DNA of 64,000 nucleotides from Eledone cirrhosa (taxonomy: Eukaryota), in the NCBI GenBank assembly GCA_964016885.1, contig OZ024744.1, forward strand, positions 131,750,001 to 131,814,000, written 5' to 3'. The translations under genes were made by a program, and so were the position numbers. Position 1 is the stretch's first letter. The number at the start of each line of letters is the position of its first letter. Below, one piece after another: positions 2,364 to 63,700 of the stretch. A model generated the notes under the pieces. It did not search any database. It was not told the origin of the DNA and saw only the letters and a list, made by a program, of their open reading frames with translations.

Positions 2364-2788
2364 AACCCCAACTTCACTCAACCCCACCTTAACTCAACCC
2401 CAATTTAACTTAACCCCAACTTCACTCAACCCCAACTTAACTTAACCCCAACTTCACTCAACCCCAACTTAACTCAAACCCAACTTAACTTAACCCCAAC
2501 TTAACTTAACCTTAACTTAACTTAACCCCGACTTAACTTAACTTCGACTTAACTTAACCCCAACTTAACTTAACCCCAACTTAACTTAACCCCAACTTAA
2601 CTTAACCACAAATTAACTTAACCCCAACTTAAATTAACCCCAACTTAAATTAACCCCAACTTAACTTAACCCCAACTTAACTTAACCCCAACTTAACTCA
2701 CACCCAACTTAACTTACCCCCAACTTAACTTAACCCCAACTTGACTTAACCCCAACTTAACTTAACCCCAACTTAACTTAACCCCAAA
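2364..2788 (-). repeat. Inverted satellite island 1 (425 bp)
   Basis: Reads (AACCCCAACTTAACTT)n between the junctions GGGGTT|AACCCC and CCCCAAA|TTCGGGG. Confidence 0.97.
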
Positions 2789-3450
2789 TTCGGGGTTAAG
2801 TTAAGTTGGGGTTAAGTTAAGTTAGGCTTAACTTAAGTTGGGGTTAAGTTAAGTTGGGGGTAAGTTAAGTTCTGGGTAAGTTAAGTTGGGGTTAAGTTAA
2901 GTTGGGGTTAAGTTGGGGTTAAGTTAAGTTAGGGTTAAGTTAAGTTGGGGTTGAGTTAAGTTGGGGTTAAGTTAAGTTGGGGTTAAGTTAAGTTGGGGTC
3001 AAGTTAAGTTGGGGTTAAAATTAAGTTGGGGTTAAGTCAAGTTGGGGTTAAGTTAAGTTGGGGTTAATTTAGTTGGGGTTAAGTTAAGTTGGGGCTAAGT
3101 TAAGTTGGGGCTAAGTTAAGTTATGGCTAAGTTAAGTTGGGGTTAAGTTAAGTTGGGGTTAAGTTAAGTTGGGGTTAATTTAAATTGGGGTTAAGTTAAC
3201 TTTGTGGTTAAGTTAAGTTGGGGTTAAGTTAAGTTGGGGTTAAGTTAAGTTGGGGTTGAGTTAAGTTGGGGTTGAGTGAAGTTGGGGTTAAGTTAAGTTG
3301 GGGTTAAGTTAAGTTGGCGTTAAGTTAAGTTGGGGTTGAGTTAAGTTGGGGTTGAGTTAATTTAGGGTTAAGTTAAGTTGGGGTTAAGTTAAGTTGGGTT
3401 TAAATTAAGTTGGGGTTAAATTAAGTTGGGGTAAATTTAAGTTGGGGGTA

Positions 3451-6400
3451 AGTTAAGTTGGGGTTAAGTTAAGTTGGGGTTAAGTTAAGTTGGGGTTAAG
3501 TTAAGTTGGGGTTAAGTTAAGTTGGGGTCAAGTTAAGTTGGGGTTAAAATTAAGTTGGGGTTTAGTTAAGTTGGGGTTCAGTTAAGTTGGGGTTAAGATA
3601 AGTTTAGGTTAAGTTGGGGTTAAATTAATTTGGGGTTAAGTTAAGTTGGGGTTTAGTTAAGTTGGGGTTAAGTTAAGTTGGGGTTAATTTAAGTTGGGGT
3701 TAAGTTAAGTTGCGGGTAATTTAAGTTGGGGTTAAGTTAAGTTGGGGTTAAGTTAAGTTGGGGTTAAGTTAAGTTGGGGGTAAGTTAAGTTGGGGGTAAG
3801 TTAAGTTGGGGGTAAGTTAAGTTGGGGTTAAGTTAAGTTGGGGTTAAGTTAAGTTAGGGTTAAGTTAAGTTGGGGTTGAGTTAAGTTGGGGTTAATTTAA
3901 GTTGGGGTTATGTTAAGTTGGGGTTAAGTTAAATTGGGGTTAAGTTAAGTTGGGGTTAAGTTAAGTTGGGGTTAAGTTAAGTTGGGGTTAAGTTAGATTG
4001 TGGTTAAGTTAAGTTGGGGTTAAGTTAAGTTGGGGTTAATTTAAGTTGGGGTTAAGTTAAGGCGGGGTTAAGTTGAGTTGGTGTTAAGTTAAGTTGGGGT
4101 TAAGTTAAGTTGGGGTTGAGTTAATTTTGGGTTAACTTAAGTTGGGGGTACTTAAGTTGGGTTTAAGTTAAGTGGGGTTAAGTTAAGTTGGGGTTAAGTT
4201 AAGTTGGGGTTTAGTTAAGTTGGGGTTAAGTTAGGTTGTGGTTAAATAAAGTTGGGGGTAAGTTAAGTTGGGGGTAAGTTAAGTTGGGGTTAATTTAAGT
4301 TGGGTCTAATTAAGTTGGGGTTAAGTTAAGTTGGGGTTAAGTAAAGTTGGGGTTGAGTTAAGTTGGGGTTAATTTAAGTTGGGGCTAAGTTAATTTGTGG
4401 TTAAGTTAAGTTGGGGTTAAGTTAAGTTGGGGTTAAGTTAAGTTGGGGCTGAGTTAAGTTGGGGTTGAGTTAATTTAGGGTTAAGTTAAGTTGGGGTTAA
4501 GTTAAGTTGGGTTTAAGTTAAGTTGGGGTTAAATTAAGTTGGGGTTAAGTTAAGTTGGGGGTAAGTTAAGTTGGGGGCAAGTTAAGTTGGGGTTAAGTTA
4601 AGTTGGGGTTAAATTAAGTTGGGGTTAAGTTAAGTTGGTGTTAAGTTAAGTTGGGGTTTATTTAAGTTGGGGTTAATTAAGTTGGGGTTAAGTTTAGTTG
4701 GGGTTAAGTTAAGTTGGGGTTAATTTAAGTTGGGGTTGAGTTAAGTTGGGGTTAAGTTAAGTTGGGTTTATATTAAGTTGGGGTTAAGTTAAGTTGGGGT
4801 TAAGTTAAGTTGGGGTTCAGTTAAGTTGCGGTTAAGTTAAGTTGGGGTTAAGTTAAGTTGGGGTTAAGTTAAGTTGGGGTTAAGTTAAGTTGGTGTTAAG
4901 TTAAGTTGGGGCTAAGTTAAGTTGGGGCTGAGTTAAGTTGGGGCTGAGTTAAGTTGGGGTTAAGTTAAGTTGGGGTTGAGTTAAGTTGGGGTTAAGTTAA
5001 GTTGGGGTTAAGTTAAGTTGGGGTTAAGTTAAGTTGGGGTTAAGTTAAGTTGGGGTTTAGTTAAGTTGGGGTTCAGGTAAGTTGGGGTTAAGTTAAGTTT
5101 AGGTTAAGTTGGGGTTAAATTAATTTGGGTTTAAGTTAAGTTGGGGTTTAGTTAAGTTGGGCTTAAGTTAAGTTGGGGTTAATTTAAGTTGGGGTTAAGT
5201 TAAGTTGCGGGTAATTTAAGTTGGGGTTAAGTTAAGTTGGGGTTAAGTTAAGTTGGGGTTAAGTTAAGTTAGGGTTAAGTTAAGTTGGGGGTAAGTTAAG
5301 TTGGGGGTAAGTTAAGTTGGGGGTAAGTTAAGTTGGGGTTAAGTTAAGTTGGGGTTAAGTTAAGTTAGGGTTAAGTTAAGTTGGGGTTGAGTTAAATTGG
5401 GGTTAAGTTAAGTTGGGGTTATATTAAGTTGGGGTTAAGTTAAGTTGCGGTTAAGTTAAGTTGGGGTTAAGTTAAGTTGGGGTAAAGTTAAATTGGGGTT
5501 AAGTTAAGTTGGGGTTAAGTTAAGTTGGGGTTAATTTAAGTTGGGGTTAAGTTAGATTGTCGTTAAGTTAAGTTGGGGTTAAGTTAAGTTGGGGTTAAGT
5601 TAAGGCGGGGTTAAGTTGAGTTGGTGTTAAGTTAAGTTGGGGTTAAGTTAAGTTGGGGTTGAGTTAATTTTGGGTTAACTTAAGTTGGGGGTACTTAAGT
5701 TGGGTTTAAGTTAAGTGGGGTTAAGTTAAGTTGGGGTTAAGTTAAGTTGGCATTAAGTTAGGTTGTGGTTAAGTTAAGTTGGGGGTAAGTTAAGTTGGGA
5801 GTAAGTTAAGTTGGGGTTAATTTAGGTTGGGTCTAATTAAGTTGGGGTTAAGATAAGTTGGGGTTAAGTTAAGTTGGGGTTGAGTTAATTTGGGGTTAAC
5901 TTAAGTTGGGGGTACTTAAGTTGGGGTTAAGTTAAGTTGGGGTTAAGTTAAGTGGTGGTTATGTTAAGTTGGGGTTAAGTTAAGTTGGGGTTAATTTAAA
6001 TTGGGGTTAAGTTAACTTTGTGGTTAAGTTAAGTTGGGGTTAAGTTAAGTTGGGGTTCAGTTAAGTTGCGGTTAAGTTAAGTTGGGGTTAAGTTAAGTTG
6101 GGGTCAAGTTAAGCTGGGGTTAAGTTAAGTTGGGTTTAAGTTAGGTTGGTTAGTTAAGTTGAGTTTAAGTTAAGTTGGGGTTAATTTAAGTTGGGTTTAA
6201 GTTAAGTTGGGGTTCAGTTAAGTTGGGGTTAAGTTAAGTTTAGGTTAAGTTGGGGTTAAATTAATTTGGGGTTAAGTTAAGTTGGGGTTTAGTTAAGTTG
6301 GGGTTAAGTTAAGTTCGGGTTAATTTAAGTTGGGGTTAAGTTAAGTTGCGGGTAATTTAAGTTGGGGTTAAGTTAAGTTGGGGTTAAGTTAAGTTGGGGT

Positions 6401-9400
6401 TAAGTTAAGTTGGGGTTAAGTTAAGTTGGGGGTAAGTTAAGTTGGGGGTAAGTTAAGTTGGGGGTAAGTTAAGTTGGGGTTAAGTTAAGTTGGGGTTAAG
6501 TTAAGTTAGGGTTAAGTTAAGTTGGGGTTGAGTTAAGTTGGGGTTAAGTTAAGTTGGGGTTATGTTAAGTTGGGGTTAAGTTAAGTTGCGGTTAAGTTAA
6601 GTTGGGGTTAAGTTAAGTTGGGGTTAAGTTAAATTGGGGTTAAGTTAAGTTGGGGTTAAGTTAAGTTGGGGTTAAGTTAAGTTGGGGTTAAGTTAGATTG
6701 TGGTTAAGTTAAGTTGGGGTTAAGTTAAGTTGGGGTTAAGTTAAGTTGGGGTTAAGTTAAGGCGGGGTTAAGTTGAGTTGGTGTTAAGTTAAGTTGGGGT
6801 TAATTTAAGTTGGGGTTGAGTTAATTTTGGGTTAACTTAAGTTGGGGGTACTTAAGTTGGGTTTAAGTTAAGTGGGGTTAAGTTACTTTGGGGTTAAGTT
6901 AAGTTGGGGTTAAGTTAAGTTGGGGTTAAGTTAGGTTGTGGTTAAGTTAAGTTGGGGGTAAGTTAAGTTGGGGGTAAGTTAAGTTGGGGTTAATTTAAGT
7001 TGGGTCTAATTAAGTTGGGGTTAAGTTAAGTTGGGGTTAAGTTAAGTTGGGGTTGAGTTAAGTTGGTGTTAATTTAAGTTGGGGCTAAGTTAATTTGTGG
7101 TTAAGTTAAGTTGGGGTTAAGTTAAGTTGGGGTTAAGTTAAGTTGGGGCTGAGTTAAGTTGGGGTTGAGTTAATTTAGGGTTAAGTTAAGTTGGGGTTAA
7201 GTTAAGTTGGGGTTAAATTAAGTTGGGGTTAAGTTAAGTTGGGGGTAAGTTAAGTTGGGGTTAAGTTAAGTTGGGGCTAAGTTAAGTTGGGGCTGAGTTA
7301 AGTTGGGGTTAAGTTAAGTTGGGGTTAAGTTAAGTTGGGATTAAGTTAGGTTGTGGTTAAGTTAAGTTGGGGGTAAGTTAAGTTGGGGGTAAGTTAAGTT
7401 GGGGTTAATTTAAGTTGGGTCTAATTAAGTTGGGGTTAAGTTAAGTTGGGGTTAAGTTAAGTTGGGGTTGAGTTAAGTTGGGGTTAATTTAAGTTGGGGC
7501 TAAGTTAATTTGTGGTTAAGTTAAGTTGGGGTTAAGTTAAGTTGGGGTTAATTTAAGTTGGGGGTAAGTTAAGTTGGGGGCAAGTTAAGATGGGGTTAAG
7601 TTAAGTTGGGGTTAAATTAAGTTGGGGTTAAGTTAAGTTGGTGTTAAGTTAAGTTGGGGTTGAGTTAAGTTGGGGTTAAGTTAAGTTGGGTTTATATTAA
7701 GTTGGGGTTAAGTTAAGTTGGGGTTAAGTTAAGTTGGGGTTCAGTTAAGTTGCGGTTAATTTAAGTTGGGGTTAAGTTAAGTTGGGGTTAAGTTAAGTTG
7801 GGGTTAAGTTAAGTTGGGGTTAAGTTAAGTTGGTGTTAAGTTAAGTTGGGGCTAAGTTAAGTTGGGGCTGAGTTAAGTTGGGGCTGAGTTAAGTTGGGGT
7901 TAAGTTAAGTTGGGGTTGAGTTAAGTTGGGGTTAAGTTAAGTTGGGGTTAAGTTAAGTTGGGGTTAAGTTAAGTTGGGGTTAAGTTAAGTTGGGGTTTAG
8001 TTAAGTTGGGGTTCAGTTAAGTTGGGGTTAAGTTAAGTTTAGGTTAAGTTGGGGTTAAATTAATTTGGGGTTAAGTTAAGTTGGGGTTTAGTTAAGTTGG
8101 GGTTAAGTTAAGTTGGGGTTAATTTAAGTTGGGGTTAAGTTAAGTTGCGGGTAATTTAAGTTGGGGTTAAGTTAAGTTGGGGTTAAGTTAAGTTGGGGTT
8201 AAGTTAAGTTGGGGTTAAGTTAAGTTGGGGGTAAGTTAAGTTGGGGGTAAGTTAAGTTGGGGGTAAGTTAAGTTGGGGTTAAGTTAAGTTGGGGTTAAGT
8301 TAAGTTAGGGTTAAGTTAAGTTGGGGTTGAGTTAAATTGGGGTTAAGTTAAGTTGGGGTTAAGTTAAGTTGGGGTTAAGTTAAATTGGGGTTAAGTTAAG
8401 TTGGGGTTAAGTTAAGTTGGGGTTAAGTTAAGTTGGGGTTAAGTTAGATTGTGGTTAAGTTAAGTTGGGGTTAAGTTAAGTTGGGGTTAAGTTAAGTTGG
8501 GGTTAAGTTAAGGCGGGGTTAAGTTGAGTTGGTGTTAAGTTAAGTTGGGGTTAAGTTAAGTTGGGGTTGAGTTAATTTTGGGTTAACTTAAGTTGGGGGT
8601 ACTTAAGTTGGGTTTAAGTTAAGTGGGGTTAAGTTAAGTTGGGGTTAAGTTAAGTTGGGGTTAAGTTAAGTTGGGATTAAATTAGGTTGTGGTTAAGTTA
8701 AGTTGGGGGTAAGTTAAGTTGGGGGTAAGTTAAGTTGGGGTTAATTTAAGTTGGGTCTAATTAAGTTGGGGTTAAGTTAAGTTGGGGTTAAGTTAAGTTG
8801 GGGTTGAGTTAATTTGGGGTTAACTTAAGTTGGGGGTACTTAAGTTGGGGTTAAGTTAAGTTGGGGTTAAGTTAAGTGGTGGTTATGTTAAGTTGGGGTT
8901 AAGTTAAGTTGGGGTTAATTTAAATTGGGGTTAAGTTAACTTTGTGGTTAAGTTAAGTTGGGGTTAAGTTAAGTTGGGGTTAAGTTAAGTTGGGGTTCAG
9001 TTAAGTTGCGGTTAAGTTAAGTTGGGGTTAAGTTAAGTTGGGGTCAAGTTAAGCTGGGGTTAAGTTAAGTTGGGGTTAAGTTAGGTTGGTTAGTTAAGTT
9101 GAGTTTTAGTTAAGTTGGGGTTAATTTAAGTTGGGTTTAAGTTAAGTTGGGGTTAAGTTAAGTTGGGGTTAAGTTAAGTTGGGGTTAAGTTAAGTTGGGG
9201 TTAAGTTAAGTTGGGGTTAAGTTAAGTTGGGGTTAAGTTAAGTTGGGGTCAAGTTAAGTTGGGGTTAAAATTAAGTTGGGGTTTAGTTAAGTTGGGGTTC
9301 AGTTAAGTTGGGGTTAAGATAAGTTTAGGTTAAGTTGGGGTTAAATTAATTTGGGGTTAAGTTAAGTTGGGGTTTAGTTAAGTTGGGGTTAAGTTAAGTT

Positions 9401-12400
9401 GGGGTTAATTTAAGTTGGGGTTAAGTTAAGTTGCGGGTAATTTAAGTTGGGGTTAAGTTAAGTTGGGGTTAAGTTAAGTTGGGGTTAAGTTAAGTTGGGG
9501 GTAAGTTAAGTTGGGGGTAAGTTAAGTTGGGGGTAAGTTAAGTTGGGGTTAAGTTAAGTTGGGGTTAAGTTAAGTTAGGGTTAAGTTAAGTTGGGGTTGA
9601 GTTAAGTTGGGGTTAATTTAAGTTGGGGTTATGTTAAGTTGGGGTTAAGTTAAATTGGGGTTAAGTTAAGTTGGGGTTAAGTTAAGTTGGGGTTAAGTTA
9701 AGTTGGGGTTAAGTTAGATTGTGGTTAAGTTAAGTTGGGGTTAAGTTAAGTTGGGGTTAATTTAAGTTGGGGTTAAGTTAAGGCGGGGTTAAGTTGAGTT
9801 GGTGTTAAGTTAAGTTGGGGTTAAGTTAAGTTGGGGTTGAGTTAATTTTGGGTTAACTTAAGTTGGGGGTACTTAAGTTGGGTTTAAGTTAAGTGGGGTT
9901 AAGTTAAGTTGGGGTTAAGTTAAGTTGGGGTTTAGTTAAGTTGGGGTTAAGTTAGGTTGTGGTTAAGTTAAGTTGGGGGTAAGTTAAGTTGGGGGTAAGT
10001 TAAGTTGGGGTTAATTTAAGTTGGGTCTAATTAAGTTGGGGTTAAGTTAAGTTGGGGTTAAGTAAAGTTGGGGTTGAGTTAAGTTGGGGTTAATTTAAGT
10101 TGGGGCTAAGTTAATTTGTGGTTAAGTTAAGTTGGGGTTAAGTTAAGTTGGGGTTAAGTTAAGTTGGGGCTGAGTTAAGTTGGGGTTGAGTTAATTTAGG
10201 GTTAAGTTAAGTTGGGGTTAAGTTAAGTTGGGTTTAAGTTAAGTTGGGGTTAAATTAAGTTGGGGTTAAGTTAAGTTGGGGGTAAGTTAAGTTGGGGGCA
10301 AGTTAAGTTGGGGTTAAGTTAAGTTGGGGTTAAATTAAGTTGGGGTTAAGTTAAGTTGGTGTTAAGTTAAGTTGGGGTTTATTTAAGTTGGGGTTAATTA
10401 AGTTGGGGTTAAGTTTAGTTGGGGTTAAGTTAAGTTGGGGTTAATTTAAGTTGGGGTTGAGTTAAGTTGGGGTTAAGTTAAGTTGGGTTTATATTAAGTT
10501 GGGGTTAAGTTAAGTTGGGGTTAAGTTAAGTTGGGGTTCAGTTAAGTTGCGGTTAAGTTAAGTTGGGGTTAAGTTAAGTTGGGGTTAAGTTAAGTTGGGG
10601 TTAAGTTAAGTTGGTGTTAAGTTAAGTTGGGGCTAAGTTAAGTTGGGGCTGAGTTAAGTTGGGGCTGAGTTAAGTTGGGGTTAAGTTAAGTTGGGGTTGA
10701 GTTAAGTTGGGGTTAAGTTAAGTTGGGGTTAAGTTAAGTTGGGGTTAAGTTAAGTTGGGGTTAAGTTAAGTTGGGGTTTAGTTAAGTTGGGGTTCAGGTA
10801 AGTTGGGGTTAAGTTAAGTTTAGGTTAAGTTGGGGTTAAATTAATTTGGGTTTAAGTTAAGTTGGGGTTTAGTTAAGTTGGGCTTAAGTTAAGTTGGGGT
10901 TAATTTAAGTTGGGGTTAAGTTAAGTTGCGGGTAATTTAAGTTGGGGTTAAGTTAAGTTGGGGTTAAGTTAAGTTGGGGTTAAGTTAAGTTAGGGTTAAG
11001 TTAAGTTGGGGGTAAGTTAAGTTGGGGGTAAGTTAAGTTGGGGGTAAGTTAAGTTGGGGTTAAGTTAAGTTGGGGTTAAGTTAAGTTAGGGTTAAGTTAA
11101 GTTGGGGTTGAGTTAAATTGGGGTTAAGTTAAGTTGGGGTTATATTAAGTTGGGGTTAAGTTAAGTTGCGGTTAAGTTAAGTTGGGGTTAAGTTAAGTTG
11201 GGGTAAAGTTAAATTGGGGTTAAGTTAAGTTGGGGTTAAGTTAAGTTGGGGTTAATTTAAGTTGGGGTTAAGTTAGATTGTCGTTAAGTTAAGTTGGGGT
11301 TAAGTTAAGTTGGGGTTAAGTTAAGGCGGGGTTAAGTTGAGTTGGTGTTAAGTTAAGTTGGGGTTAAGTTAAGTTGGGGTTGAGTTAATTTTGGGTTAAC
11401 TTAAGTTGGGGGTACTTAAGTTGGGTTTAAGTTAAGTGGGGTTAAGTTAAGTTGGGGTTAAGTTAAGTTGGCATTAAGTTAGGTTGTGGTTAAGTTAAGT
11501 TGGGGGTAAGTTAAGTTGGGAGTAAGTTAAGTTGGGGTTAATTTAGGTTGGGTCTAATTAAGTTGGGGTTAAGATAAGTTGGGGTTAAGTTAAGTTGGGG
11601 TTGAGTTAATTTGGGGTTAACTTAAGTTGGGGGTACTTAAGTTGGGGTTAAGTTAAGTTGGGGTTAAGTTAAGTGGTGGTTATGTTAAGTTGGGGTTAAG
11701 TTAAGTTGGGGTTAATTTAAATTGGGGTTAAGTTAACTTTGTGGTTAAGTTAAGTTGGGGTTAAGTTAAGTTGGGGTTCAGTTAAGTTGCGGTTAAGTTA
11801 AGTTGGGGTTAAGTTAAGTTGGGGTCAAGTTAAGCTGGGGTTAAGTTAAGTTGGGTTTAAGTTAGGTTGGTTAGTTAAGTTGAGTTTAAGTTAAGTTGGG
11901 GTTAATTTAAGTTGGGTTTAAGTTAAGTTGGGGTTCAGTTAAGTTGGGGTTAAGTTAAGTTTAGGTTAAGTTGGGGTTAAATTAATTTGGGGTTAAGTTA
12001 AGTTGGGGTTTAGTTAAGTTGGGGTTAAGTTAAGTTCGGGTTAATTTAAGTTGGGGTTAAGTTAAGTTGCGGGTAATTTAAGTTGGGGTTAAGTTAAGTT
12101 GGGGTTAAGTTAAGTTGGGGTTAAGTTAAGTTGGGGTTAAGTTAAGTTGGGGGTAAGTTAAGTTGGGGGTAAGTTAAGTTGGGGGTAAGTTAAGTTGGGG
12201 TTAAGTTAAGTTGGGGTTAAGTTAAGTTAGGGTTAAGTTAAGTTGGGGTTGAGTTAAGTTGGGGTTAAGTTAAGTTGGGGTTATGTTAAGTTGGGGTTAA
12301 GTTAAGTTGCGGTTAAGTTAAGTTGGGGTTAAGTTAAGTTGGGGTTAAGTTAAATTGGGGTTAAGTTAAGTTGGGGTTAAGTTAAGTTGGGGTTAAGTTA

Positions 12401-14914: not shown

Positions 14915-15062
14915 TTTGGGGTTCAGTTAAGTTGGGGTTAAGTCAAGTTGGGGATAAGTTGGGGTTAAATTAATTTGGGGTTAAGTTAAGTTGGGGTTAA
15001 GTTAAGTTGGGGTTAAGTTAAGTTGGGGTTAAGTTAATTTGTGGTTAAGTTAAGTTGGGGTT

Positions 15063-51133: not shown

Positions 51134-51542
51134 AACCCCAACTTCACTCAACCCCACCTTAACTCAACCCCAACTTAACTTAACCCCAACTTCACTCAAC
51201 CCCAACTTAACTTAACCCCAACTTCACTCAACCCCAACTTAACTCAAACCCAACTTAACTTAACCCCAACTTAACTTAACCCTAAGTTAACTTAACCCCG
51301 ACTTAACTTAACTTCGACTTAACTTAACCCCAACTTAACTTAACCCCAACTTAACTTAACCCCAACTTAACTTAACCACAAATTAACTTAACCCCAACTT
51401 AAATTAACCCCAACTTAAATTAACCCCAACTTAACTTAACCCCAACTTAACTCACACCCAACTTAACTTACCCCCAACTTAACTTAACCCCAACTTGACT
51501 TAACCCCAACTTAACTTAACCCCAACTTAATTTAACCCCAAA
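51134..51542 (-). repeat. Inverted satellite island 10 (409 bp)
   Basis: C-rich orientation with the same junctions. Confidence 0.97.
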
Positions 51543-52771
51543 TTCGGGGTTAAGTTAAGTTGGGGTTAAGTTAAGTTAGGCTTAACTTAAGTTGGGGTTA
51601 AGTTAAGTTGGGGGTAAGTTAAGTTCTGGGTAAGTTAAGTTGGGGTTAAGTTGGGGTTAAGTTAAGTTAGGGTTAAGTTAAGTTGGGGTTGAGTTAAGTT
51701 GGGGTTAAGTTAAGTTGGGGTTAAGTTAAGTTGGGGTCAAGTTAAGTTGGGGTTAAAATTAAGTTGGGGTTAAGTCAAGTTGGGGTTAAGTTAAGTTGAG
51801 GTTAATTTAGTTGGGGCTAAGTTAAGTTGGGGCTAAGTTAAGTTGGGGCTAAGTTAAGTTGGGGTTAAGTTAAGTTGGGGTTAAGTTAAGTTGGGGTTAA
51901 TTTAAATTGGGGTTAAGTTAACTTTGTGGTTAAGTTACGTTGGGGTTAAGTTAAGTTGGGGTTAAGTTAAGTTGGGGTTGAGTTAAGTTGGGGTTGAGTG
52001 AAGTTGGGGTTAAGTTAAGTTGGGGTTAAGTTAAGTTGGCGTTAAGTTAAGTTGGGGTTGAGTTAAGTTGGGGTTGAGTTAATTTAGGGTTAAGTTAAGT
52101 TGGGGTTAAGTTAAGTTGGGTTTAAATTAAGTTGGGGTTAAATTAAGTTGGGGTTAATTTAAGTTGGGGGTAAGTTAAGTTGGGGTTAAGTTAAGTTGGG
52201 GTTAAGTTAAGTTGGGGTTAAGTTAAGTTGGGGTCAAGTTAAGTTGGGGTTAAAATTAAGTTGGGGTTAAGTCAAGTTGGGGTTAAGTTAATTTGGGGTT
52301 AATTTAGTTGGGGTTAAGTTAAGTTGGGGCTAAGTTAAGTTGGGGCTAAGTTAAGTTGGGGCTAAGTTAAGTTGGGGTTAATTTAAGTTGGGGTTAAGTT
52401 AAGGTGGGGTTCAGTTAAGTTGCGGTTAAGTTAAGTTGGGGTTAAGTTAAGTTGGGGTTAAGTTAAGTTGGGGTTAAGTTAAGTTGGGGTTCAATTAAGT
52501 TGCGGTTAAGTTAAGTTGGGGTTAAGTTAAGTTGGGGTTAAGTTAAGTCGGGGTTAAGTTAAGTTGGGGTCAAGTTAAGTTGGGGTTAAGTTAAGTTGGG
52601 GTTAAGTTAAGTTGGTTAGTTAAGTTGAGTTTAAGTGAAGTTGGGGTTAATTTAAGTTGGGGTTAAGTTGGGGTTAAATTAATTTGGGGTTAAGTTAAGT
52701 TGGGGTTAAGTTAAGTTGGGGTTAAGTTAAGTTGGGGTTAAGTTAATTTGTGGTTAAGTTAAGTTGGGGTT

Positions 52772-53196
52772 AACCCCAACTTCACTCAACCCCACCTTAA
52801 CTCAACCCCAACTTAACTTAACCCCAACTTCACTCAACCCCAACTTAACTTAACCCCAACTTCACTCAACCCCAACTTAACTCAAACCCAACTTAACTTA
52901 ACCCCAACTTAACTTAACCCTAACTTAACTTAACCCCGACTTAACTTAACTTTGACTTAACTTAACCCCAACTTAACTTAACCCCAACTTAACTTAACCC
53001 CAACTTAACTTAACCACAAATTAACTTAACCCCAACTTAAATTAACCCCAACTTAAATTAACCCCAACTTAACTTAACCCCAACTTAACTTAACCCCAAC
53101 TTAACTCACACCCAACATAACTTACCCCCAACTTAACTTAACCCCAACTTGACTTAACCCCAACTTAACTTAACCCCAACTTAACTTAACCCCAAA
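52772..53196 (-). repeat. Inverted satellite island 11 (425 bp)
   Basis: C-rich orientation with the same junctions; private TTTGAC and AACATAA variants. Confidence 0.97.
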
Positions 53197-54382
53197 TTCG
53201 GGGTTAAGTTAAGTTGGGGTTAAGTTAAGTTAGGCTTAACTTAAGTTGGGGTTAAGTTAAGTTGGGGGTAACTTAAGTTCTGGGTAAGTTAAGTTGGGGT
53301 TAAGTTGGGGTTAAGTTAAGTTAGGGTTAAGTTAAGTTGGGGTTGAGTTAAGTTGGGGTTAAGTTAAGTTGGGGTTAAGTTAAGTTGGGGTCAAGTTAAG
53401 TTGGGGTTAAAATTAAGTTGGGGTTAAGTCAAGTTGGGGTTAAGTTAAGTTGGGGTTAATTTAGTTGGGGTTAAGTTAAGTTGGGGCTAAGTTAAGTTGG
53501 GGCTAAGTTAAGTTGGGGCTAAGTTAAGTTGGGGTTAAGTTAAGTTGGGGTTAAGTTAAGTTGGGGTTAATTTAAATTGGGGTTAAGTTAACTTTGTGGT
53601 TAAGTTACGTTGGGGTTAAGTTAAGTTGGGGTTAAGTTAAGTTGGGGTTGAGTTAAGTTGGGGTTGAGTGAAGTTGGGGTTAAGTTAAGTTGGGGTTAAG
53701 TTAAGTTGGCTTTAAGTTAAGTTGGGGTTGAGTTAAGTTGGGGTTGAGTTAATTTAGGGTTAAGTTAAGTTGGGGTTAAGTTAAGTTGGGGTTAATTTAA
53801 GTTGGGGGTAAGTTAAGTTGGGGTTAAGTTAAGTTGGGGTTAAGTTAAGTTGGGGTTAAGTTAAGTTGGGGTCAAGTTAAGTTGGGGTTAAAATTAAGTT
53901 GGGGTTAAGTCAAGTTGGGGTTAAGTTAATTTGGGGTTAATTTAGTTGGGGTTAAGTTAAGTTGGGGCTAAGTTAAGTTGGGGCTAAGTTAAGTTGGGGC
54001 TAAGTTAAGTTGGGGTTAATTTAAGTTGGGGTTAAGTTAAGGTGGGGTTCAGTTAAGTTGCGGTTAAGTTAAGTTGGGGTTAAGTTAAGTTGGGGTTAAG
54101 TTAAGTTGGGGTTAAGTTAAGTTGGGGTTCAGTTAAGTTGCGGTTAAGTTAAGTTGGGGTTAAGTTACGTTGGGGTTAAGTTAAGTCGGGGTTAAGTTAA
54201 GTTGGGGTCAAGTTAAGTTGGGGTTAAGTTAAGTTGGGGTTAAGTTAAGTTGGTTAGTTAAGTTGAGTTTAAGTGAAGTTGGGGTTAATTTAAGTTGGGG
54301 TTAAGTTAAGTTGGGGTTAAGTTAAGTTGGGGTTAAGTTAAGTTGGGGTTAAATTAATTTGTGGTTAAGTTAAGTTGGGGTT

Positions 54383-54678
54383 AACCCCAACTTCACTCAA
54401 CCCCACCTTAACTCAACCCCAACTTAACTTAACCCCAACTTCACTCAACCCCAACTTAACTTAACCCCAACTTCACTCAACCCCAACTTAACTCAACCCC
54501 AACTTAACTTAACCCCAACTTAACTTAACCCTAACTTAACTTAACCCCGACTTAACTTAACTTCGACTTAACTTAACCCCAACTTAACTTAACCCCAACT
54601 TAACTTAACCCCAACTTAACTTAACACAAATTAACTTAACCCCAACTTAAATTAACCCCAACTTAAATTAACCCCAAA
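54383..54678 (-). repeat. Inverted satellite island 12 (296 bp, internally shortened)
   Basis: Same junctions; shares AACACAAA and the right-hand loss with island 9. Confidence 0.96.
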
Positions 54679-57600
54679 TTCGGGGTTAAGTTAAGTTGGG
54701 GTTAAGTTAAGTTAGGCTTAACTTAAGTTGGGGTTAAGTTAAGTTGGGGGTAAGTTAAGTTCTGGGTAAGTTAAGTTGGGGTTAAGTTGGGGTTAAGTTA
54801 AGTTAGGGTTAAGTTAAGTTGGGGTTGAGTTAAGTTGGGGTTAATTTAGTTGGGGTTAAGTTAAGTTGGGGCTAAGTTAAGTTGGGGCTAAGTTAAGTTG
54901 GGGTTAAGTTGGGGTTAAGTTAAGTTGGGGTTAATTTAAATTGGGGTTAAGTTAACTTTGTGGTTAAGTTAAGTTGGGGTTAAGTTAAGTTGGGGTTGAG
55001 TTAAGTTGGGGTTGAGTGAAGTTGGGGTTAAGTTAAGTTGGGGTTAAGTTAAGTTGGCGTTAAGTTAAGTTGGGGTTGAGTTAAGTTGGGGTTGAGTTAA
55101 TTTAGGGTTAAGTTAAGTTGGGGTTAAGTTAAGTTGGGTTTAAGTTGAGTTGGGGTTAAATTAAGTTGGGGTTAAATTAAGTTGGGGTTAAGTTAAGTTG
55201 GGGGTAAGTTAAGTTGGGGTTAAGTTAAGTTGGGGTTAAGTTAAGTTGGGGTCAAGTTAAGTTGGGGTTAAAATTAAGTTGGGGTTAAGTCAAGTTGGGG
55301 TTAAGTTAAGTTGGTGTTAAGTTAAGTTGGGGCTAAGTTAAGTTGGGGTTGAGTTAAGTTGGGGTTAATTTAAATTGGGGTTAAGTTAACTTTGTGGTTA
55401 AGTTAAGTTGGGGTTAAGTTAAGTTGGGGTTAAGTTAAGTTGGGGTTGAGTTAAGTTGGGGTTGAGTGAAGTTGGGGTTAAGTTAAGTTGGGTTTAAGTT
55501 AAGTTGGCGTTAAGTTAAGTTGGGGTTGAGTGATGTTGGGGTTGAGTTAATTTAGGGTTAAGTTAAGTTGGGGTTAAGTTAAGTTGGGTTTAAGTTAAGT
55601 TGGTGTTAAGTTAAGTTGGGACTAAGTTAAGTTGGGGTTGAGTTAAGTTGGGGTTAATTTAAATTGGGGTTAAGTTAACTTTGTGGTTAAGTTAAGTTGG
55701 GGTTAAGTTAAGTTGGGGTTAAGTTAAGTTGGGGTTGAGTTAAGTTGGGGTTGAGTGAAGTTGGGGTTAAGTTAAGTTGGGGTTAAGTTAAGTTGGCGTT
55801 AAGTTAAGTTGGGGTTGAGTTAAGTTGGGGTTGAGTTAATTTAGGGTTAAGTTAAGTTGGGGTTAAGTTAAGTTGGGTTTAAGGTAAGTTGGGGTTAAGT
55901 TAAGTTGGGGGTAAGTTAAGTTGGGGTTAATTAAGTTGGGGTTAAGTTAAGTTGGGGTTAAGTTAAGTTGGGGTCAAGTTAAGTTGGGGTTAAAATTAAG
56001 TTGGGGTTAAGTCAAGTTGGGGTTAAGTTAAGTTGGGGTTAATTTAGTTGGGGTTAAGTTAAGTTGGGGCTAAGTTAAGTTGGGGCTAAGTTAAGTTGGG
56101 GCTAAGTTAAGTTGGGGTTAAGTTAAGTTGGGGTTAAGTTAAGGTGGGGTTAATTTAAGTTGGGGTCAACTTAAATTGGGGTTAAGTTAAGTTGGGGTTA
56201 AGTTAAGTTGGGGTTAAGTTAAGTTGGGGTTAAGTTAAGTTGGGGTTAAATTAAGTTGGTGTTAAGTTGTGTTGGGGCTAAGTTAAGTTGGGGCTGAGTT
56301 AAGTTGGGGCTGAGTTAAGTTGGGGTTAAGTTAAGTTGGGGTTGAGTTAAGTTGGGGTTAAGTTAAGTTGGGGTTAAGTTAAGTTGGGGTTAAGTTAAGT
56401 TGGGGTTAAGTTAAGTTGGGGTTGAGTTAAGTTGGGGTTAAGTTAAGTTGGGGTTCAGTTAATTTGGGGTTAAGTTAAGTTGGGGTTAAGATGGGGTTAA
56501 ATTATGTTGGGGTTAAGTTAAGTTGGGGTTAAGTTAAGTTGGGGTTCAGTTAAGTTGGGGTTAAGTTAAGTTGGGGTTAAGATGGGGTTAAATTAAGTTG
56601 GGGTTAAGTTAAGTTGGGGTTAAGTTAAGTCGGGGTTAAGTTAAGTCGGGGTTAAGTTAAGTTAGGGTTAATTTAAGTTGGAGTTGAGTTATGTTGGGGT
56701 TAAGTTAAGTTGGGGTTAAGTTAAGTTGCAGTTAATTTAAGTTGAGGTTAAGTTGAGTTGGGGTTAAGTTAAGTTGGGGTTAAGTTAAGATGGGGCTAAG
56801 TTAAGTTGGGGCTAAGTTAAGTTGGGGCTAAGTTAAGTTGGGATTCAGTTAAGTTGGGGTTAAGTTAAGTTTGGGTTAAGTTAAGTTGGGTTTATATTAA
56901 GTTGGGGTTAAGTTAAGTTGGGGTTAAGTTAAGTTGGGGTTCAGTTAAGTTGCGGTTAAGTTAAGTTGGGGTTAAGTTAAGTTGGGGTTAAGTTAAGTTG
57001 GGGTTAAGTTAAGTTGGGGTTAAGTTAAGTTGGTGTTAAGTTAAGTTGGGGCTAAGTTAAGTTGGGGCTGAGTTAAGTTGGGGTTAAGTTAAGTTGGGGT
57101 TGAGTTAAGTTGGGGTTTAGTTAAGTTGGGGTTCAGTTAAGTTGGGGTTAAGTTAAGTTTGGGTTAAGTTGGGGTTAAATTAATTTGGGGTTAAGTTAAG
57201 TTGGGGTTTAGTTTAGTTGGGGTTAAGTTAAGTTGGGGTTAATTTAAGTTGGGGTTAAGTTAAGTTGCGGGTAATTTAAGTTGGGGTTAAGTTAAGTTGG
57301 GGTTAAGTTAAGTTGGGGTTAAGTTAAGTTGGGGTTAAGTTAAGTTGGGGTTAAGTTAAGTTGGGGTTAAGTTAAGTTGGGGTTAAGTTAAGTTGGGGTC
57401 AAGTTAAGTTGGGGTTAAAATTAAGTTGGGGTTTAGTTAAGTTGGGGTTCAGTTAAGTTGGGGTTAAGTTAAGTTTAGGTTAAGTTGGGGTTAAATTAAT
57501 TTGGGGTTAAGTTAAGTTGGGGTTTAGTTAAGTTGGGGTTAAGTTAAGTTGGGGTTAATTTAAGTTGGGGTTAAGTTAAGTTGCGGGTAATTTAAGTTGG

Positions 57601-60600
57601 GGTTAAGTTAAGTTGGGGTTAAGTTAAGTTGGGGTTAAGTTAAGTTGGGGGTAAGTTAAGTTGGGGGTAAGTTAAGTTGGGGGTAAGTTAAGTTGGGGTT
57701 AAGTTAAGTTGGGGTTAAGTTAAGTTAGGGTTAAGTTAAGTTGGGGTTGAGTTAAGTTGGGGTTAAGTTAAGTTGGGGTTATGTTAAGTTGGGGTTAAGT
57801 TAAATTGGGGTTAAATTAAGTTGGGGTTAAGTTAAGTTGGGGTTAAGTTAAGTTGGGGTTAAGTTAGATTGTGGTTAAGTTAAGTTGGGGTTAAGTTAAG
57901 TTGGGGTTAATTTAAGTTGGGGTTAAGTTAAGGCGGGGTTAAGTTGAGTTGGTGTTAAGTTAAGTTGGGGTTAAGTTAAGTTGGGGTTGAGTTAATTTTG
58001 GGTTAACTTAAGTTGGGGGTACTTAAGTTGGGTTTAAGTTAAGTGGGGTTAAGTTAAGTTGGGGTTAAGTTAAGTTGGGGGTAAGTTAAGTTGGGGTTAA
58101 TTTAAGTTGGGTCTAATTAAGTTGGGGTTAAGTTAAGTTGGGGTTAAGTAAAGTTGGGGTTGAGTTAAGTTGGGGTTAATTTAAGTTGGGGCTAAGTTAA
58201 TTTGTGGTTAAGTTAAGTTGGGGTTAAGTTAAGTTGGGGTTAAGTTAAGTTGGGGCTGAGTTAAGTTGGGGTTGAGTTAATTTAGGGTTAAGTTAAGTTG
58301 GGGTTACGTTAAGTTGGGTTTAAGTTAAGTTGGGGTTAAATTAAGTTGGGGTTAAGTTAAGTTGGGGGTAAGTTAAGTTGGGGGCAAGTTAAGTTGGGGA
58401 TAAGTTAAGTTGGGGTTAAATTAAGTTGGGGTTAATTTAAGTTGGTGTTAAGTTAAGTTGGGGTTTATTTAAGTTGGGGTTAATTAAGTTGGGGTTAAGT
58501 TTAGTTGGGGTTAAGTTAAGTTGGGGTTAATTTAAGTTGGGGTTGAGTTAAGTTGGGGTTAAGTTAAGTTGGGTTTATATTAAGTTGGGGTTAAGTTAAG
58601 TTGGGGTTAAGTTAAGTTGGGGTTCAGTTAAGTTGCGGTTAATTTAAGTTGGGGTTAAGTTAAGTTGGGGTTAAGTTAAGTTGGGGTTAAGTTAAGTTGG
58701 GGTTAAGTTAAGTTGGGGTTAAGTTAAGTTGGGGTTAAGTTAAGTTGGGGTTTAGTTAAGTTGGGGTTCAGTTAAGTTGGGGTTAAGTTAAGTTTAGGTT
58801 AAGTTGGGGTTAAATTAATTTGGGTTTAAGTTAAGTTGGGGTTTAGTTAAGTTGGGCTTAAGTTAAGTTGGGGTTAATTTAAGTTGGGGTTAAGTTAAGT
58901 TGCGGGTAATTTAAGTTGGGGTTAAGTTAAGTTGGGGTTAAGTTAAGTTGGGGTTAAGTTAAGTTAGGGTTAAGTTAAGTTGGGGGTAAGTTAAGTTGGG
59001 GGTAAGTTAAGTTGGGGGTAATTTAAGTTGGGGTTAAGTTAAGTTGGGGTTAAGTTAAGTTAGGGTTAAGTTAAGTTGGGGTTGAGTTAAATTGGGGTTA
59101 AGTTAAGTTGGGGTTATGTTAAGTTGGGGTTAAGTTAAGTTGCGGTTAAGTTAAGTTGGGGTTAAGTTAAGTTGGGGTAAAGTTAAATTGGGGTTAAGTT
59201 AAGTTGGGGTTAAGTTAAGTTGGGGTTAATTTAAGTTGGGGTTAAGTTAGATTGTCGTTAAGTTAAGTTGGGGTTAAGTTAAGTTGGGGTTAAGTTAAGG
59301 CGGGGTTAAGTTGAGTTGGTGTTAAGTTAAGTTGGGGTTAAGTTAAGTTGGGGTTGAGTTAATTTTGGGTTAACTTAAGTTGGGGGTACTTAAGTTGGGT
59401 TTAAGTTAAGTGGGGTTAAGTTAAGTTGGGGTTAAGTTAAGTTGGCATTAAGTTAGGTTGTGGTTAAGTTAAGTTGGGGGTAAGTTAAGTTGGGAGTAAG
59501 TTAAGTTGGGGTTAATTTAGGTTGGGTCTAATTAAGTTGGGGTTAAGATAAGTTGGGGTTAAGTTAAGTTGGGGTTGAGTTAATTTGGGGTTAACTTAAG
59601 TTGGGGGTACTTAAGTTGGGGTTAAGTTAAGTTGGGGTTAAGTTAAGTGGTGGTTATGTTAAGTTGGGGTTAAGTTAAGTTGGGGTTAATTTAAATTGGG
59701 GTTAAGTTAACTTTGTGGTTAAGTTAAGTTGGGGTTAAGTTAAGTTGTGGTTCAGTTAAGTTGCGGTTAAGTTAAGTTGGGGTTAAGTTAAGTTGGGGTC
59801 AAGTTAAGCTGGGGTTAAGTTAAGTTGGGGTTAAGTTAGGTTGGTTAATTAAGTTGAGTTTAAGTTAAGTTGGGGTTAATTTAAGTTGGGTTTAAGTTAA
59901 GTTGGGGTTAAGTTAAGTTGGGGTTAAGTTAAGTTGGGGTCAAGTTAAGTTGGGGTTAAAATTAAGTTGGGGTTTAGTTAAGTTGGGGTTCAGTTAAGTT
60001 GGGGTTAAGTTTAGGTTAAGTTGGGGTTAAATTAATTTGGGGTTAAGTTAAGTTGGGGTTTAGTTAAGTTGGGGTTAAGTTAAGTTGGGGTTAATTTAAG
60101 TTGGGGTTAAGTTAAGTTGCGGGTAATTTAAGTTGGGGTTAAGTTAAGTTGGGGTTAAGTTAAGTTGGGGTTAAGTTAAGTTGGGGTTAAGTTAAGTTGG
60201 GGGTAAGTTAAGTTGGGGGTAAGTTAAGTTGGGGGTAAGTTAAGTTGGGGTTAAGTTAAGTTGGGGTTAAGTTAAGTTAGGGTTAAGTTAAGTTGGGGTT
60301 GAGTTAAGTTGGGGTTAAGTTAAGTTGGGGTTATGTTAAGTTGGGGTTAAGTTAAGTTGGGGTTAAGTTAAATTGGGGTTAAGTTAAGTTGGGGTTAAGT
60401 TAAGTTGGGGTTAAGTTAAGTTGGGGTTAAGTTAGATTGTGGTTAAGTTAAGTTGGGGTTAAGTTAAGTTGGGGTTAAGTTAAGTTGGGGTTAAGTTAAG
60501 GCGGGGTTAAGTTGAGTTGGTGTTAAGTTAAGTTGGGGTTAAGTTAAGTTGGGGTTGAGTTAATTTTGGGTTAACTTAAGTTGGGGGTAAGTTAAGTTGG

Positions 60601-60769
60601 GGGTAAGTTAAGTTGGGGTTAATTTAAGTTGGGTCTAATTAAGTTGGGGTTAAGTTAAGTTGGGGTTAAGTTAAGTTGGGGTTGAGTTAAGTTGGTGTTA
60701 ATTTAAGTTGGGGCTAAGTTAATTTGTGGTTAAGTTAGGTTGGGGTTAAGTTAAGTTGGGGTTAAGTTA

Positions 60770-63700
60770 AGTTGGGGCTGAGTTAAGTTGGGGTTGAGTT
60801 AATTTAGGGTTAAGTTAAGTTGGGGTTAAGTTAAGTTGGGTTTAAGTTAAGTTGGGGTTAAATTAAGTTGGGGTTAAGTTAAGTTGGGGGTAAGTTAAGT
60901 TGGGGTTAAGTTAAGTTGGGACTAAGTTAAGTTGGGGCTGAGTTAAGTTGGGGTTAAGTTAAGTTGGGGTTAAGTTAAGTTGGGGTTAAGTTAGGTTGTG
61001 GTTAAGTTAAGTTGGGGGTAAGTTAAGTTGGGGGTAAGTTAAGTTGGGGTTAATTTAAGTTGGGTCTAATTAAGTTGGGGTTAAGTTAAGGTGGGGTTAA
61101 GTTAAGTTGGGGTTGAGTTAAGTTGGGGTTAATTTAAGTTGGGGCTAAGTTAATTTGTGGTTAAGTTAAGTTGGGGTTAAGTTAAGTTGGGGTTAATTTA
61201 AGTTGGGGGTAAGTTAAGTTGGGGGCAAGTTAAGATGGGTTAAGTTAAGTTGGGGTTAAATTAAGTTGGGGTTAAGTTAAGTTGGTGTTAAGTTAAGTTG
61301 GGGTTGAGTTAAGTTGGGGTTAAGTTAAGTTGGGTTTATATTAAGTTGGGGTTAAGTTAAGTTGGGGTTCAGTTAAGTTGCGGTTAATTTAAGTTGGGGT
61401 TAAGTTAAGTTGGGGTTAACTTAAGTTGGGGTTAAGTTAAGTTGGGGTTAAGTTAAGTTGGTGTTAAGTTAAGTTGGGGCTAAGTTAAGTTGGGGCTGAG
61501 TTAAGTTGGGGCTGAGTTAAGTCGGGGTTAAGTTAAGTTGGGGTTGAGTTAAGTTGGGGTTAAGTTAAGTTGGGGTTAAGTTAAGTTGGGGTTAAGTTAA
61601 GTTGGGGTTAAGTTAAGTTGGGGTTTAGTTAAGTTGGGGTTCAGTTAAGTTGGGGTTAAGATAAGTTTAGGTTAAGTTGGGGTTAAATTAATTTGGGGTT
61701 AAGTTAAGTTGGGGTTTAGTTAAGTTGGGGTTAAGTTAAGTTGGGGTTAATTTAAGTTGGGGTTAAGTTAAGTTGCGGGTAATTTAAGTTGGGGTTAAGT
61801 TAAGTTGGGGTTAAGTTAAGTTGGGGTTAAGTTAAGTTGGGGTTAAGTTAAGTTGGGGGTAAGTTAAGTTGGGGTTAAGTTAAGTTGGGGTTAAGTTAAG
61901 TTAGGGTTAAGTTAAGTTGGGGTTGAGTTAAATTGGGGTTAAGTTAAGTTGGGGTTATGTTAAGTTGGGGTTAAGTTAAGTTGCGGTTAAGTTAAGTTGG
62001 GGTTAAGTTAAGTTGGGGTTAAGTTAAATTGGGGTTAAGTTAAGTTGGGGTTAAGTTAAGTTGGGGTTAAGTTAAGTTGGGGTTAAGTTAGATTGTGGTT
62101 AAGTTAAGTTGGGGTTAAGTTAAGTTGGGGCTAAGTTAAGTTGGGGTTAAGTTAAGGCGGGGTTAAGTTGAGTTGGTGTTAAGTTAAGTTGGGGTTAAGT
62201 TAAGTTGGGGTTGAGTTAATTTTGGGTTAACTTAAGTTGGGGGTACTTAAGTTGGGTTTAAGTTAAGTGGGGTTAAGTTAAGTTGGGGTTAAGTTAAGTT
62301 GGGGTTAAGTTAAGTTGGGATTAAATTAGGTTGTGGTTAAGTTAAGTTGGGGGTAAGTTAAGTTGGGGGTAAGTTAAGTTGGGGTTAATTTAAGTTGGGT
62401 CTAATTAAGTTGGGGTTAAGTTAAGTTGGGGTTAAGTTAAGTTGGGGTTGAGTTAATTTGGGGTTAACTTAAGTTGGGGGTACTTAAGTTGGGGTTAAGT
62501 TAAGTTGGGGTTAAGTTAAGTGGTGGTTATGTTAAGTTGGGGTTAAGTTAAGTTGGGGTTAATTTAAATTGGGGTTAAGTTAACTTTGTGGTTAAGTTAA
62601 GTTGGGGTTAAGTTAAGTTGGGGTTAAGTTAAGTTGGGGTTCAGTTAAGTTGCGGTTAAGTTAAGTTGGGGTTACGTTAAGTTGGGGTCAAGTTAAGCTG
62701 GGGTTAAGTTAAGTTGGGGTTAAGTCAGGTTGGTTAGTTAAGTTGAGTTTTAGTTAAGTTGGGGTTAATTTAAGTTGGGTTTAAGTTAAGTTGGGGTTAA
62801 GTTAAGTTGGGGTTAAGTTAAGTTGGGGTTAAGTTAATTTGGGGTTCAGTTAAGTTGGGGTTAAGTCAAGTTGGGGTTAAGTTGGGGTTAAATTAATTTG
62901 GGGTTAAGTTAAGTTGGGGTTAAGTTAAGTTGGGGTTAAGTTAAGTTGGGGTTAAGTTAATTTGTGGTTAAGTTAAGTTGGGGTTAACCCCAACTTCACT
63001 CAACCCCACCTTAACTCAACCCCAACTTAACTTAACCCCAACTTCACTCAACCCCAACTTAACTTAACCCCAACTTCACTCAACCCCAACTTAACTCAAA
63101 CCCAACTTAACTTAACCCCAACTTAACTTAACCTTAACTTAACTTAACCCCGACTTAACTTAACTTCGACTTAACTTAACCCCAACTTAACTTAACCCCA
63201 ACTTAACTTAACCCCAACTTAACTTAACCACAAATTAACTTAACCCCAACTTAAATTAATCCCAACTTAAATTAACCCCAACTTAACTTAACCCCAACTT
63301 AACTTAACCCCAACTTAACTCACACCCAACTTAACTTACCCCCAACTTAACTTAACCCCAACTTGACTTAACCCCAACTTAACTTAACCCCAACTTAACT
63401 TAACCCCAAATTCGGGGTTAAGTTAAGTTGGGGTTAAGTTAAGTTAGGCTTAACTTAAGTTGGGGTTAAGTTAAGTTGGGGGTAAGTTAAGTTCTGGGTA
63501 AGTTAAGTTGGGGTTAAGTTAAGTTGGGGTTAAGTTGGGGTTAAGTTAAGTTAGTGTTAAGTTAAGTTGGGGTTGAGTTAAGTTGGGGTTAAGTTAAGTT
63601 GGGGTTAAGTTAAGTTGGGGTCAAGTTAAGTTGGGGTTAAAATTAAGTTGGGGTTAAGTCAAGTTGGGGTTAAGTTAAGTTGGGGTTAATTTAGTTGGGG

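What the first reader, a model, noticed from the sequence alone, without database searches (positions are those of the whole stretch)
2364..63410. One strand-switched island propagated 13 times inside a polarised 16-bp satellite
Seen: 13 reverse-orientation islands (425 bp x8, 409 bp x3, 296 bp and 280 bp) with identical entry and exit junctions. They share internal variants (CTTCACTC x3, CCACCTT, CCCCGAC) and flanks (TTTGTGG upstream, TTAGGCTTAAC downstream). Inference: a single ancestral inversion was amplified as part of higher-order units. Known: closely spaced inverted repeats are usually unstable, so repeated retention is notable. It could be a dyad-symmetry landmark, as proposed for non-B DNA in centromere specification, or a neutral passenger.
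Basis: partly seen in the sequence, partly recalled or inferred. Interest (0 to 1): 0.75.

Follow-up and report, generated by a model that had tools for sequence, protein, structure and literature searches.

The report
Amplified inversion fossil in satellite array
Thirteen short back-to-front patches in a 16-base repeat are copies of one patch present at least 800 times along an 8-million-base array; it likely began as a copying error, likely rides along as a passenger, and likely gives the array rare places to turn round or end.

Summary
In detail: 13 reverse islands with the stated junctions and shared variants. They are 9 distinct sequences; four pairs come from one 20.3-kb tandem duplication. 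They belong to one family with at least 805 copies in an 8.4-Mb array; its junctions and length do vary array-wide.

Two further, independent island families (29 and 3 copies) are inverted copies of their own flank, joined at the monomer's self-complementary TTAA. This matches a known template-switch type.

Tests favour a passenger. Junctions mutate as often as neighbouring markers. Islands lie in recent duplications at chance rate, 20 vs 18.9. Island-less deletion haplotypes also spread. About half the array has none.

Islands still matter mechanically: centre flips rebuild the same junction, and a large strand switch and both joints to a neighbouring satellite lie inside islands.

No chromatin data; raw reads not examined. 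Amplified inversion seams are published for Tribolium, and this scan noted this same family in other windows. New member of a known kind.

The parts
1..64000 (+). 16-bp satellite, G-rich strand on +, part of an 8.38-Mb array (C28:126,967,456-135,348,068, two 200-N gaps)
2362..2790 (-). island 1, 429 bp; twin of island 5
15061..15489 (-). island 2, 429 bp; twin of island 6
16856..17268 (-). island 3, 413 bp (one monomer less); twin of island 7
18451..18879 (-). island 4, 429 bp; twin of island 8
22695..23123 (-). island 5, 429 bp
35394..35822 (-). island 6, 429 bp
37189..37601 (-). island 7, 413 bp
38784..39212 (-). island 8, 429 bp
40427..40710 (-). island 9, 284 bp, internal deletion next to the exit
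51132..51544 (-). island 10, 413 bp
52770..53198 (-). island 11, 429 bp
54381..54680 (-). island 12, 300 bp, same deletion lineage as island 9
62984..63412 (-). island 13, 429 bp
1..39937 (+). recent tandem duplication, unit 20,333 bp (starts about 810 bp before the window), carrying 4 islands per unit
3449..14914 (+). island-free tandem duplication, unit 5,721 bp (repeated at 23782-35247)
45177..48983 (+). island-free tandem duplication, unit 1,904 bp

Best explanation
The 13 islands are copies of one reverse-oriented satellite patch that likely arose by a polymerase template switch at the monomer's own self-complementary TTAA and has likely been multiplied as a passenger inside ordinary tandem duplications of the array. 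Shown: one family of at least 805 copies, nested subfamilies laid out in blocks along the array, length changes mostly in whole monomers, duplication units of 0.2-20 kb with or without islands. Inferred: (1) the entry junction formed at TTAA; the exit formed separately or was trimmed (one-base overlap, 14 bases short of a reciprocal flip); (2) the seam lasts because the usual fates of a close inverted repeat here (centre flips, whole-monomer slips) rebuild the same seam; (3) as the only opposite-facing homology in a one-way array, islands serve now and then as turning points for larger rearrangements.
For: Single origin: shared internal haplotype and flank markers across subfamilies. Mechanism by analogy inside the same satellite: family 2 (29 sites, C28:128.56-129.60 Mb) and family 3 (3 sites, C18) carry an inverted copy of their own upstream flank plus an inverted spacer of 4 and 2 monomers, the 3-1-2-4 type of PMC5453318 (passages). 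TTAA use: 4 of 5 junctions not picked by a TTAA entry search, against 20 of 256 random phase joins (P=1.7e-4; 3 of 4, P=0.0018, if the family-3 exit is dropped). Passenger: distinct changes per site 10/12 (entry), 12/14 (exit) versus 10/16 and 9/9 in pinned neighbours; 20 islands inside 30 recent tandem duplications versus 18.9 at random, 17 of 30 without any; 18 of 302 downstream markers in island zones lack the island, 11 of them joining the island's own two flanks; haplotype decay around junctions within the range of control markers; no family-1 exit in 168, 94 and 40 kb sampled from three zones totalling about 4.7 Mb. Self-rebuilding seam: 2 centre-flip events among 342 entries. Turning points: strand switch at 133.355 Mb inside an island with no gap; nested reversals at 131.324-131.326 and 128.585 Mb; both joints to a 32-bp satellite inside islands.
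Against: For this family itself no mirror flank or forward donor was found (best forward matches 6-9 mismatches per 160 bp in 1.55 Mb), so its origin by template switch is by analogy; its exit does not use TTAA. The four central bases are altered in only 2 of 310 entries. Duplication junctions lie within 150 bp outside islands in 5 of 30 cases versus 2.3 expected (P=0.077), and ends of long matches 133 versus 89 (non-independent counts), a hint that islands may provoke breaks. The family reached about 1,000 copies while the other two reached 29 and 3. Allele counts are lower bounds and copies are related, so power is modest.
Confidence: 0.75

Rival explanations
1. Selected dyad landmark: islands would extrude hairpins or cruciforms that mark a centromere or chromatin domain.
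For: Island plus flanks is predicted to fold at -440.6 kcal/mol versus -82.7 for a forward stretch of equal length; exit 60-mer -29.6, entry 60-mer -11.8, forward -3.1. Density is fairly even, 22-35 per 100 kb, over most island zones. The central four bases rarely change. The same idea is proposed for Tribolium (PMC13081366, PMC12581902, passages).
Against: Junction cores mutate like their neighbours, perfect arms range 1-43 bp and lengths 106-442 bp (a longer 474-490-bp type appears); deletion haplotypes spread; about half the array lacks islands; roughly 53,000 of 64,581 hits of a monomer pattern fall in this one array, so it is not seen on all chromosomes of this assembly. Any reversed patch in a satellite would fold as well.
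Confidence: 0.1
2. Selfish driver: hairpins at islands would stall forks and trigger break-induced re-copying, so island-bearing units amplify themselves.
For: Mild excess of breakpoints just outside islands (5 vs 2.3 of 30; 133 vs 89 non-independent ends); far higher copy number than the two other families.
Against: Islands are not over-represented in recent duplications (20 vs 18.9), the median junction distance is not shorter (1381 vs 991 bp), and island-free duplications are common.
Confidence: 0.1
3. Origin at the array edge: the island would be a captured copy of a reverse stub that links the 16-bp array to an older, related 32-bp satellite, i.e. a fossil of the array's birth (a variant of the origin step; compatible with later passenger spread).
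For: At 135,347,793 an entry junction and a 275-bp island-like stub with variants shared by several subfamilies run on into a degenerate 32-bp satellite of the island's orientation, in an otherwise island-free zone; this would explain the non-reciprocal exit and the missing donor.
Against: A second such end near 124.600 Mb has a different joint and a locally typical island, which fits truncation of existing islands better. The stub stops about 5 bases short of the islands' exit point.
Confidence: 0.2
4. Assembly or sequencing artefact (fold-back chimeric reads), or a TTAA-targeting or fold-back transposon.
For: The assembly has gaps in the array; TTAA is the target word of piggyBac elements (recalled).
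Against: Hundreds of copies carry nested, region-specific point variants and do not mirror their flanks; no foreign termini, no TTAA at the exit, lengths change in monomer steps.
Confidence: 0.03

Closest known systems
Tribolium macro-dyad symmetries with conserved inversion sites (T. madens INV_1a, INV_1b, INV_2, PMC13081366; T. freemani TfSat01, PMC12581902; passages read)
   Same: A few satellite strand-switch junction types, without foreign sequence, repeated hundreds to thousands of times at high identity in megabase arrays; hairpin function proposed but untested.
   Different: There the arms are kilobases long, roughly balanced and on many chromosomes; here short out-and-back patches of 0.1-0.5 kb sit in a one-way array on one contig, and sequence tests point to passive spread.
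Four-point template switch, type 3-1-2-4: inverted repeat with inverted spacer (Loytynoja and Goldman, PMC5453318; passages read)
   Same: Families 2 and 3 have this anatomy; the centre flips resemble spacer inversion between inverted repeats.
   Different: Described for short events in unique human DNA; here fragments are 150-250 bp, the join word is built into every monomer, and the product is then amplified. Not shown for the window's own family.
Human HSat3B5 (chr9) and beta-satellite arrays with over 200 inversion breakpoints; 1.7-Mb inversion in the chr1 active array (10.1101/2021.07.12.452052; passages read)
   Same: Many strand switches and megabase-scale reversed blocks inside satellite arrays.
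   Different: The passages seen count breakpoints and do not trace them to one amplified junction pair; inversions there are noted mainly in diverged arrays.
Fold-back inverted duplications with a disomic spacer (Hermetz et al., PMC3907307; abstract only)
   Same: Short inverted sequence at the turn, spacer between the arms.
   Different: Megabase one-off rearrangements after a break; the spacer there is single-copy and not described as inverted; here two switches return to the original strand.
Non-B DNA model of centromere specification (Kasinathan and Henikoff, PMC5889037; search listing and start of abstract only)
   Same: Dyad symmetry in satellite DNA predicted to fold.
   Different: That model concerns dyads under 10 bp within monomers; no centromere mapping exists for this array in my calls.

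Membership tests
Satellite with amplified, conserved inversion junctions (Tribolium type) | Few junction types repeated many times at high identity | tested here: met
   At least 805 exits of one family; 267 of 310 entry cores identical
Satellite with amplified, conserved inversion junctions (Tribolium type) | No extraneous sequence at the switch | tested here: met
   Junctions consist of monomer fragments only
Tribolium macro-dyad symmetry proper | Kilobase-long, roughly balanced opposite subarrays | tested here: not met
   Islands 106-490 bp, 3-10% of sequence in island zones
Tribolium macro-dyad symmetry proper | Present on many or all chromosomes | tested here: not met
   All 92 entry hits on C28; first 100 of 805 exit hits on C28, none on lower-numbered contigs; later contigs not listed
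Template switch type 3-1-2-4 | Reverse fragment copies the adjacent upstream flank | tested here: inconclusive
   Met for families 2 and 3; not seen for the window's family
Template switch type 3-1-2-4 | Spacer present only in inverted form | tested here: met
   Family 2 spacer: 29 reverse hits, 1 forward hit lying in a re-inverted copy
Reciprocal in-place inversion | Junctions conserve repeat phase (24 bases between G and C runs) | tested here: not met
   4 plus 6 bases in family 1; no reciprocal-type exit among the 4 sites
Centromeric non-B DNA landmark | CENP-A or kinetochore occupancy; structure formed in vivo | not testable with these tools
   Folding prediction only
Centromeric non-B DNA landmark | Junction sequence or geometry under constraint | tested here: not met
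   caveat: central 4 bases changed in only 2 of 310
TTAA-targeting or fold-back transposon | Own termini and a duplicated target at both ends | tested here: not met
   No non-satellite termini; exit lacks TTAA

The most novel reading that the evidence does not exclude
The roughly 1,000 islands are kept as regularly spaced hairpin or cruciform landmarks that define a functional (centromere or heterochromatin) sub-domain of the array, and also dictate where the array can invert and where it ends, so a single old copying error became the array's architectural hinge.
Probability: 0.1. Interest if true: 0.75.

Novelty: new member of a known kind. Interest (0 to 1): 0.35.

Why it matters
Conserved, repeated inversion seams in satellites are being read as signs of function (Tribolium papers). 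This array offers a worked null model: three independent island families at 3, 29 and about 1,000 copies, a built-in join word, seams that rebuild themselves, and chance-rate carriage in duplications. It also shows how tiny reversed patches could supply the only homology for large inversions in a one-way array. Island-rich and island-free zones of the same satellite make the dyad hypothesis directly testable with one chromatin experiment.

Tried and rejected
Exit junction as a fold at a second palindromic word: rejected, the window's form is likely derived, since most other subfamilies carry a different base at that site. Island as a mirror triplication of both flanks: rejected for this family. 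Family 3 as a clean reciprocal flip (my note): superseded, it copies its flank. Wide-gap junction searches were swamped by family 1 and gave no unbiased census. First duplication scan found only 2 events through too strict chaining; redone, which left out the mixed-orientation block at 131.924-132.010 Mb. First island set (351 kept of 370, 19 dropped) held some short forward flanks miscalled as islands; redone (328 exits, 310 with a called entry, 18 without, among them the long type). The family-2 positive control gave 2 mismatches, probably because segmentation trimmed the adjacent flank; one search shows the match. In one search, 2 of 33 'no island' rows were miscalls and 13 lie outside family-1 zones. 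The exact breakpoints of the 131.324-131.326 Mb reversal were not reconstructed against an intact long island. Paper searches for the monomer (19 unrelated hits) and for cephalopod centromere satellites found no description of this satellite; two searches sought amplified satellite inversions. Supplements of the papers were not read and may hold junction-level detail.

Full report
Setting. The window is a pure 16-bp satellite (4,025 copies, 88% matches) at C28:131.750-131.814 Mb of a 3.0-Gb assembly. The array runs from 126,967,456 to 135,348,068 on a 136.5-Mb contig, with 200-N gaps at 131.987 and 132.7935 Mb. I fetched 200 stretches, of which about 1.5 Mb lay in the array at the time of the main counts; sampling favoured island-bearing places. 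A scaled count puts about 53,000 of 64,581 hits of a 36-base monomer pattern in this array. A smaller array lies on C18 and a composite repeat on C2. Whether the array is centromeric is unknown. An earlier scan note calls the genome a likely octopus; I did not test that.

Observation. They are 9 distinct sequences; four pairs are twins from one 20,333-bp tandem duplication. The long island-free gaps are themselves recent duplications of 5,721 and 1,904 bp.

One family, many copies. The window's entry 22-mer has 92 hits, all on C28; its exit 22-mer 155; a degenerate exit pattern 805, a lower bound since two subtypes escape it. Scaling sampled densities gives about 1,000. Subfamilies defined by exit variants occupy blocks along the array and share internal variant monomers and flank markers, which argues for one origin and against chimeric reads. 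Lengths run from 106 to about 490 bp, mostly in monomer steps. Three zones totalling about 4.7 Mb gave no family-1 exit in 168, 94 and 40 kb sampled, and the genome-wide list has none between 124.69 and 130.248 Mb.

How islands form. The monomer holds TTAA twice, and TTAA is its own reverse complement. Searches for other TTAA joins found two independent families: family 2, 29 sites at 128.56-129.60 Mb, and family 3, 3 sites on C18. Both carry an inverted copy of the monomers just upstream plus an inverted spacer; the family-2 spacer occurs 29 times reversed and once forward, in a re-inverted copy. This is type 3-1-2-4 of the four-point template-switch model (PMC5453318, passages). Of five junctions not picked by a TTAA entry search, four use TTAA, where 20 of 256 random phase joins would (P=1.7e-4; 3 of 4, P=0.0018, without the family-3 exit, which one search also targeted). 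Families 2 and 3 were found by TTAA searches, so families with other joins may be missed. For the window's family the entry is a TTAA join, but the exit has a one-base overlap and is 14 bases short of a reciprocal flip; no mirror flank or forward donor was found (62 of 74 forward marker hits were not listed and are only presumed to lie in reversed blocks). Its origin by template switch is therefore inferred by analogy.

Why the seam lasts. Two centre-flip events among 342 entries moved the first three island monomers into the flank and left the same junction. Slips by whole monomers would do the same. Islands are also lost: 18 of 302 downstream markers in island zones lack one, in at least five contexts, and 11 join the island's own two flanks.

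Passenger tests. Distinct changes per site are 10/12 at the entry and 12/14 at the exit, against 10/16 and 9/9 in pinned neighbours. Thirty recent tandem duplications contain 20 islands versus 18.9 by random placement; 17 contain none. Haplotype decay around junctions lies within the range of control markers, the island side of the entry at the low end. Against this reading: the four central bases change in only 2 of 310 entries; duplication junctions fall within 150 bp outside islands in 5 of 30 cases versus 2.3 (P=0.077), and ends of long matches 133 versus 89, with 55 versus 76 inside islands (non-independent counts). Predicted folding is strong (-440.6 versus -82.7 kcal/mol), as any reversed patch would give.

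Turning points. The reversed block ending at 133.355 Mb returns to forward inside an island, with no gap nearby. A reversed block starts at 131,964,569 with a different TTAA join; the gaps leave open whether these are one event. Nested reversals at 131.324-131.326 and 128.585 Mb contain reversed junctions; their exact breakpoints were not reconstructed. The array's east end is an entry junction and a 275-bp island-like stub that runs into a related, degenerate 32-bp satellite of the island's orientation; a detached block at 124.60 Mb ends the same way with a different joint. In a one-way array islands are the only opposite-facing homology, so this is expected once they exist. Whether the east stub is the donor or a truncated copy is open.

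Comparison. Amplified, conserved inversion seams are published for Tribolium satellites (PMC13081366, PMC12581902; passages), and hundreds of strand switches for human HSat3B5 and beta satellite (10.1101/2021.07.12.452052; passages). This array works like those but lacks their long balanced arms, so I do not file it as a macro-dyad system. I found no paper on this satellite. Earlier notes of this scan describe the same family from other windows; they are unchecked, gave me three paper leads, and are not counted as support.

Verdict. Real; one amplified strand-switch fossil, most likely a passenger (0.75), with a side role as hinge for rearrangements. New member of a known kind; interest 0.35. 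Independent raw reads and chromatin remain untested.

Noticed in passing
L188:7793-10000, L179, L180 (C28:135.348-135.41 Mb); L101 (C28:124.59-124.60 Mb): Degenerate 32-bp satellite (about 74% matches) built from subunits like those of the 16-mer; abuts the array inside an island at both ends seen; also forms an array on C8 at 30.9-31.1 Mb with its own strand switches. Possibly an older relative of the 16-mer.
   Followed up: partly
L012, L013, L014, L081-L087, L115 (C28:132.1-132.79 Mb); L166-L174 (128.56-129.6 Mb); L037 (C2:209.19 Mb): AT-rich repeat blocks of 0.7-3.2 kb are embedded and co-amplified in the array; in the 132-Mb zone one joint lies inside an island. A similar AT-rich satellite adjoins the C2 composite array.
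   Followed up: partly
L037:5000-10000, L038 (C2:209.2-209.3 Mb): Composite tandem unit: runs of the 16-mer with its own variants alternate with a roughly 230-bp non-satellite segment, near the middle of a 416-Mb contig.
   Followed up: no
C28:131.9875-132.7935 Mb: A 0.8-Mb forward piece sits between two 200-N gaps with reversed array on both sides; its orientation or placement may be a scaffolding choice. The 124.6-Mb block has the same island subtype and also ends at a gap.
   Followed up: partly
L175:4805 (C28:130,474,802): One island has a new exit junction through TTAA, replacing the family exit.
   Followed up: partly
L077, L078 (C28:131.385, 131.397 Mb): Two exit junctions have become perfect 14-bp palindromes by one change; could be quasi-palindrome correction or a common monomer variant.
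   Followed up: no
window-wide: The G-rich strand has four-G runs every 16 bases, a possible G-quadruplex substrate; islands put the complementary C runs on the same strand. Not tested.
   Followed up: no
L105:2840-3048, L106:9553-9761 (C28:124.69, 124.76 Mb): A 208-bp patch of the 16-mer lies inside a repeated non-satellite element, suggesting carriage by a dispersed repeat.
   Followed up: no
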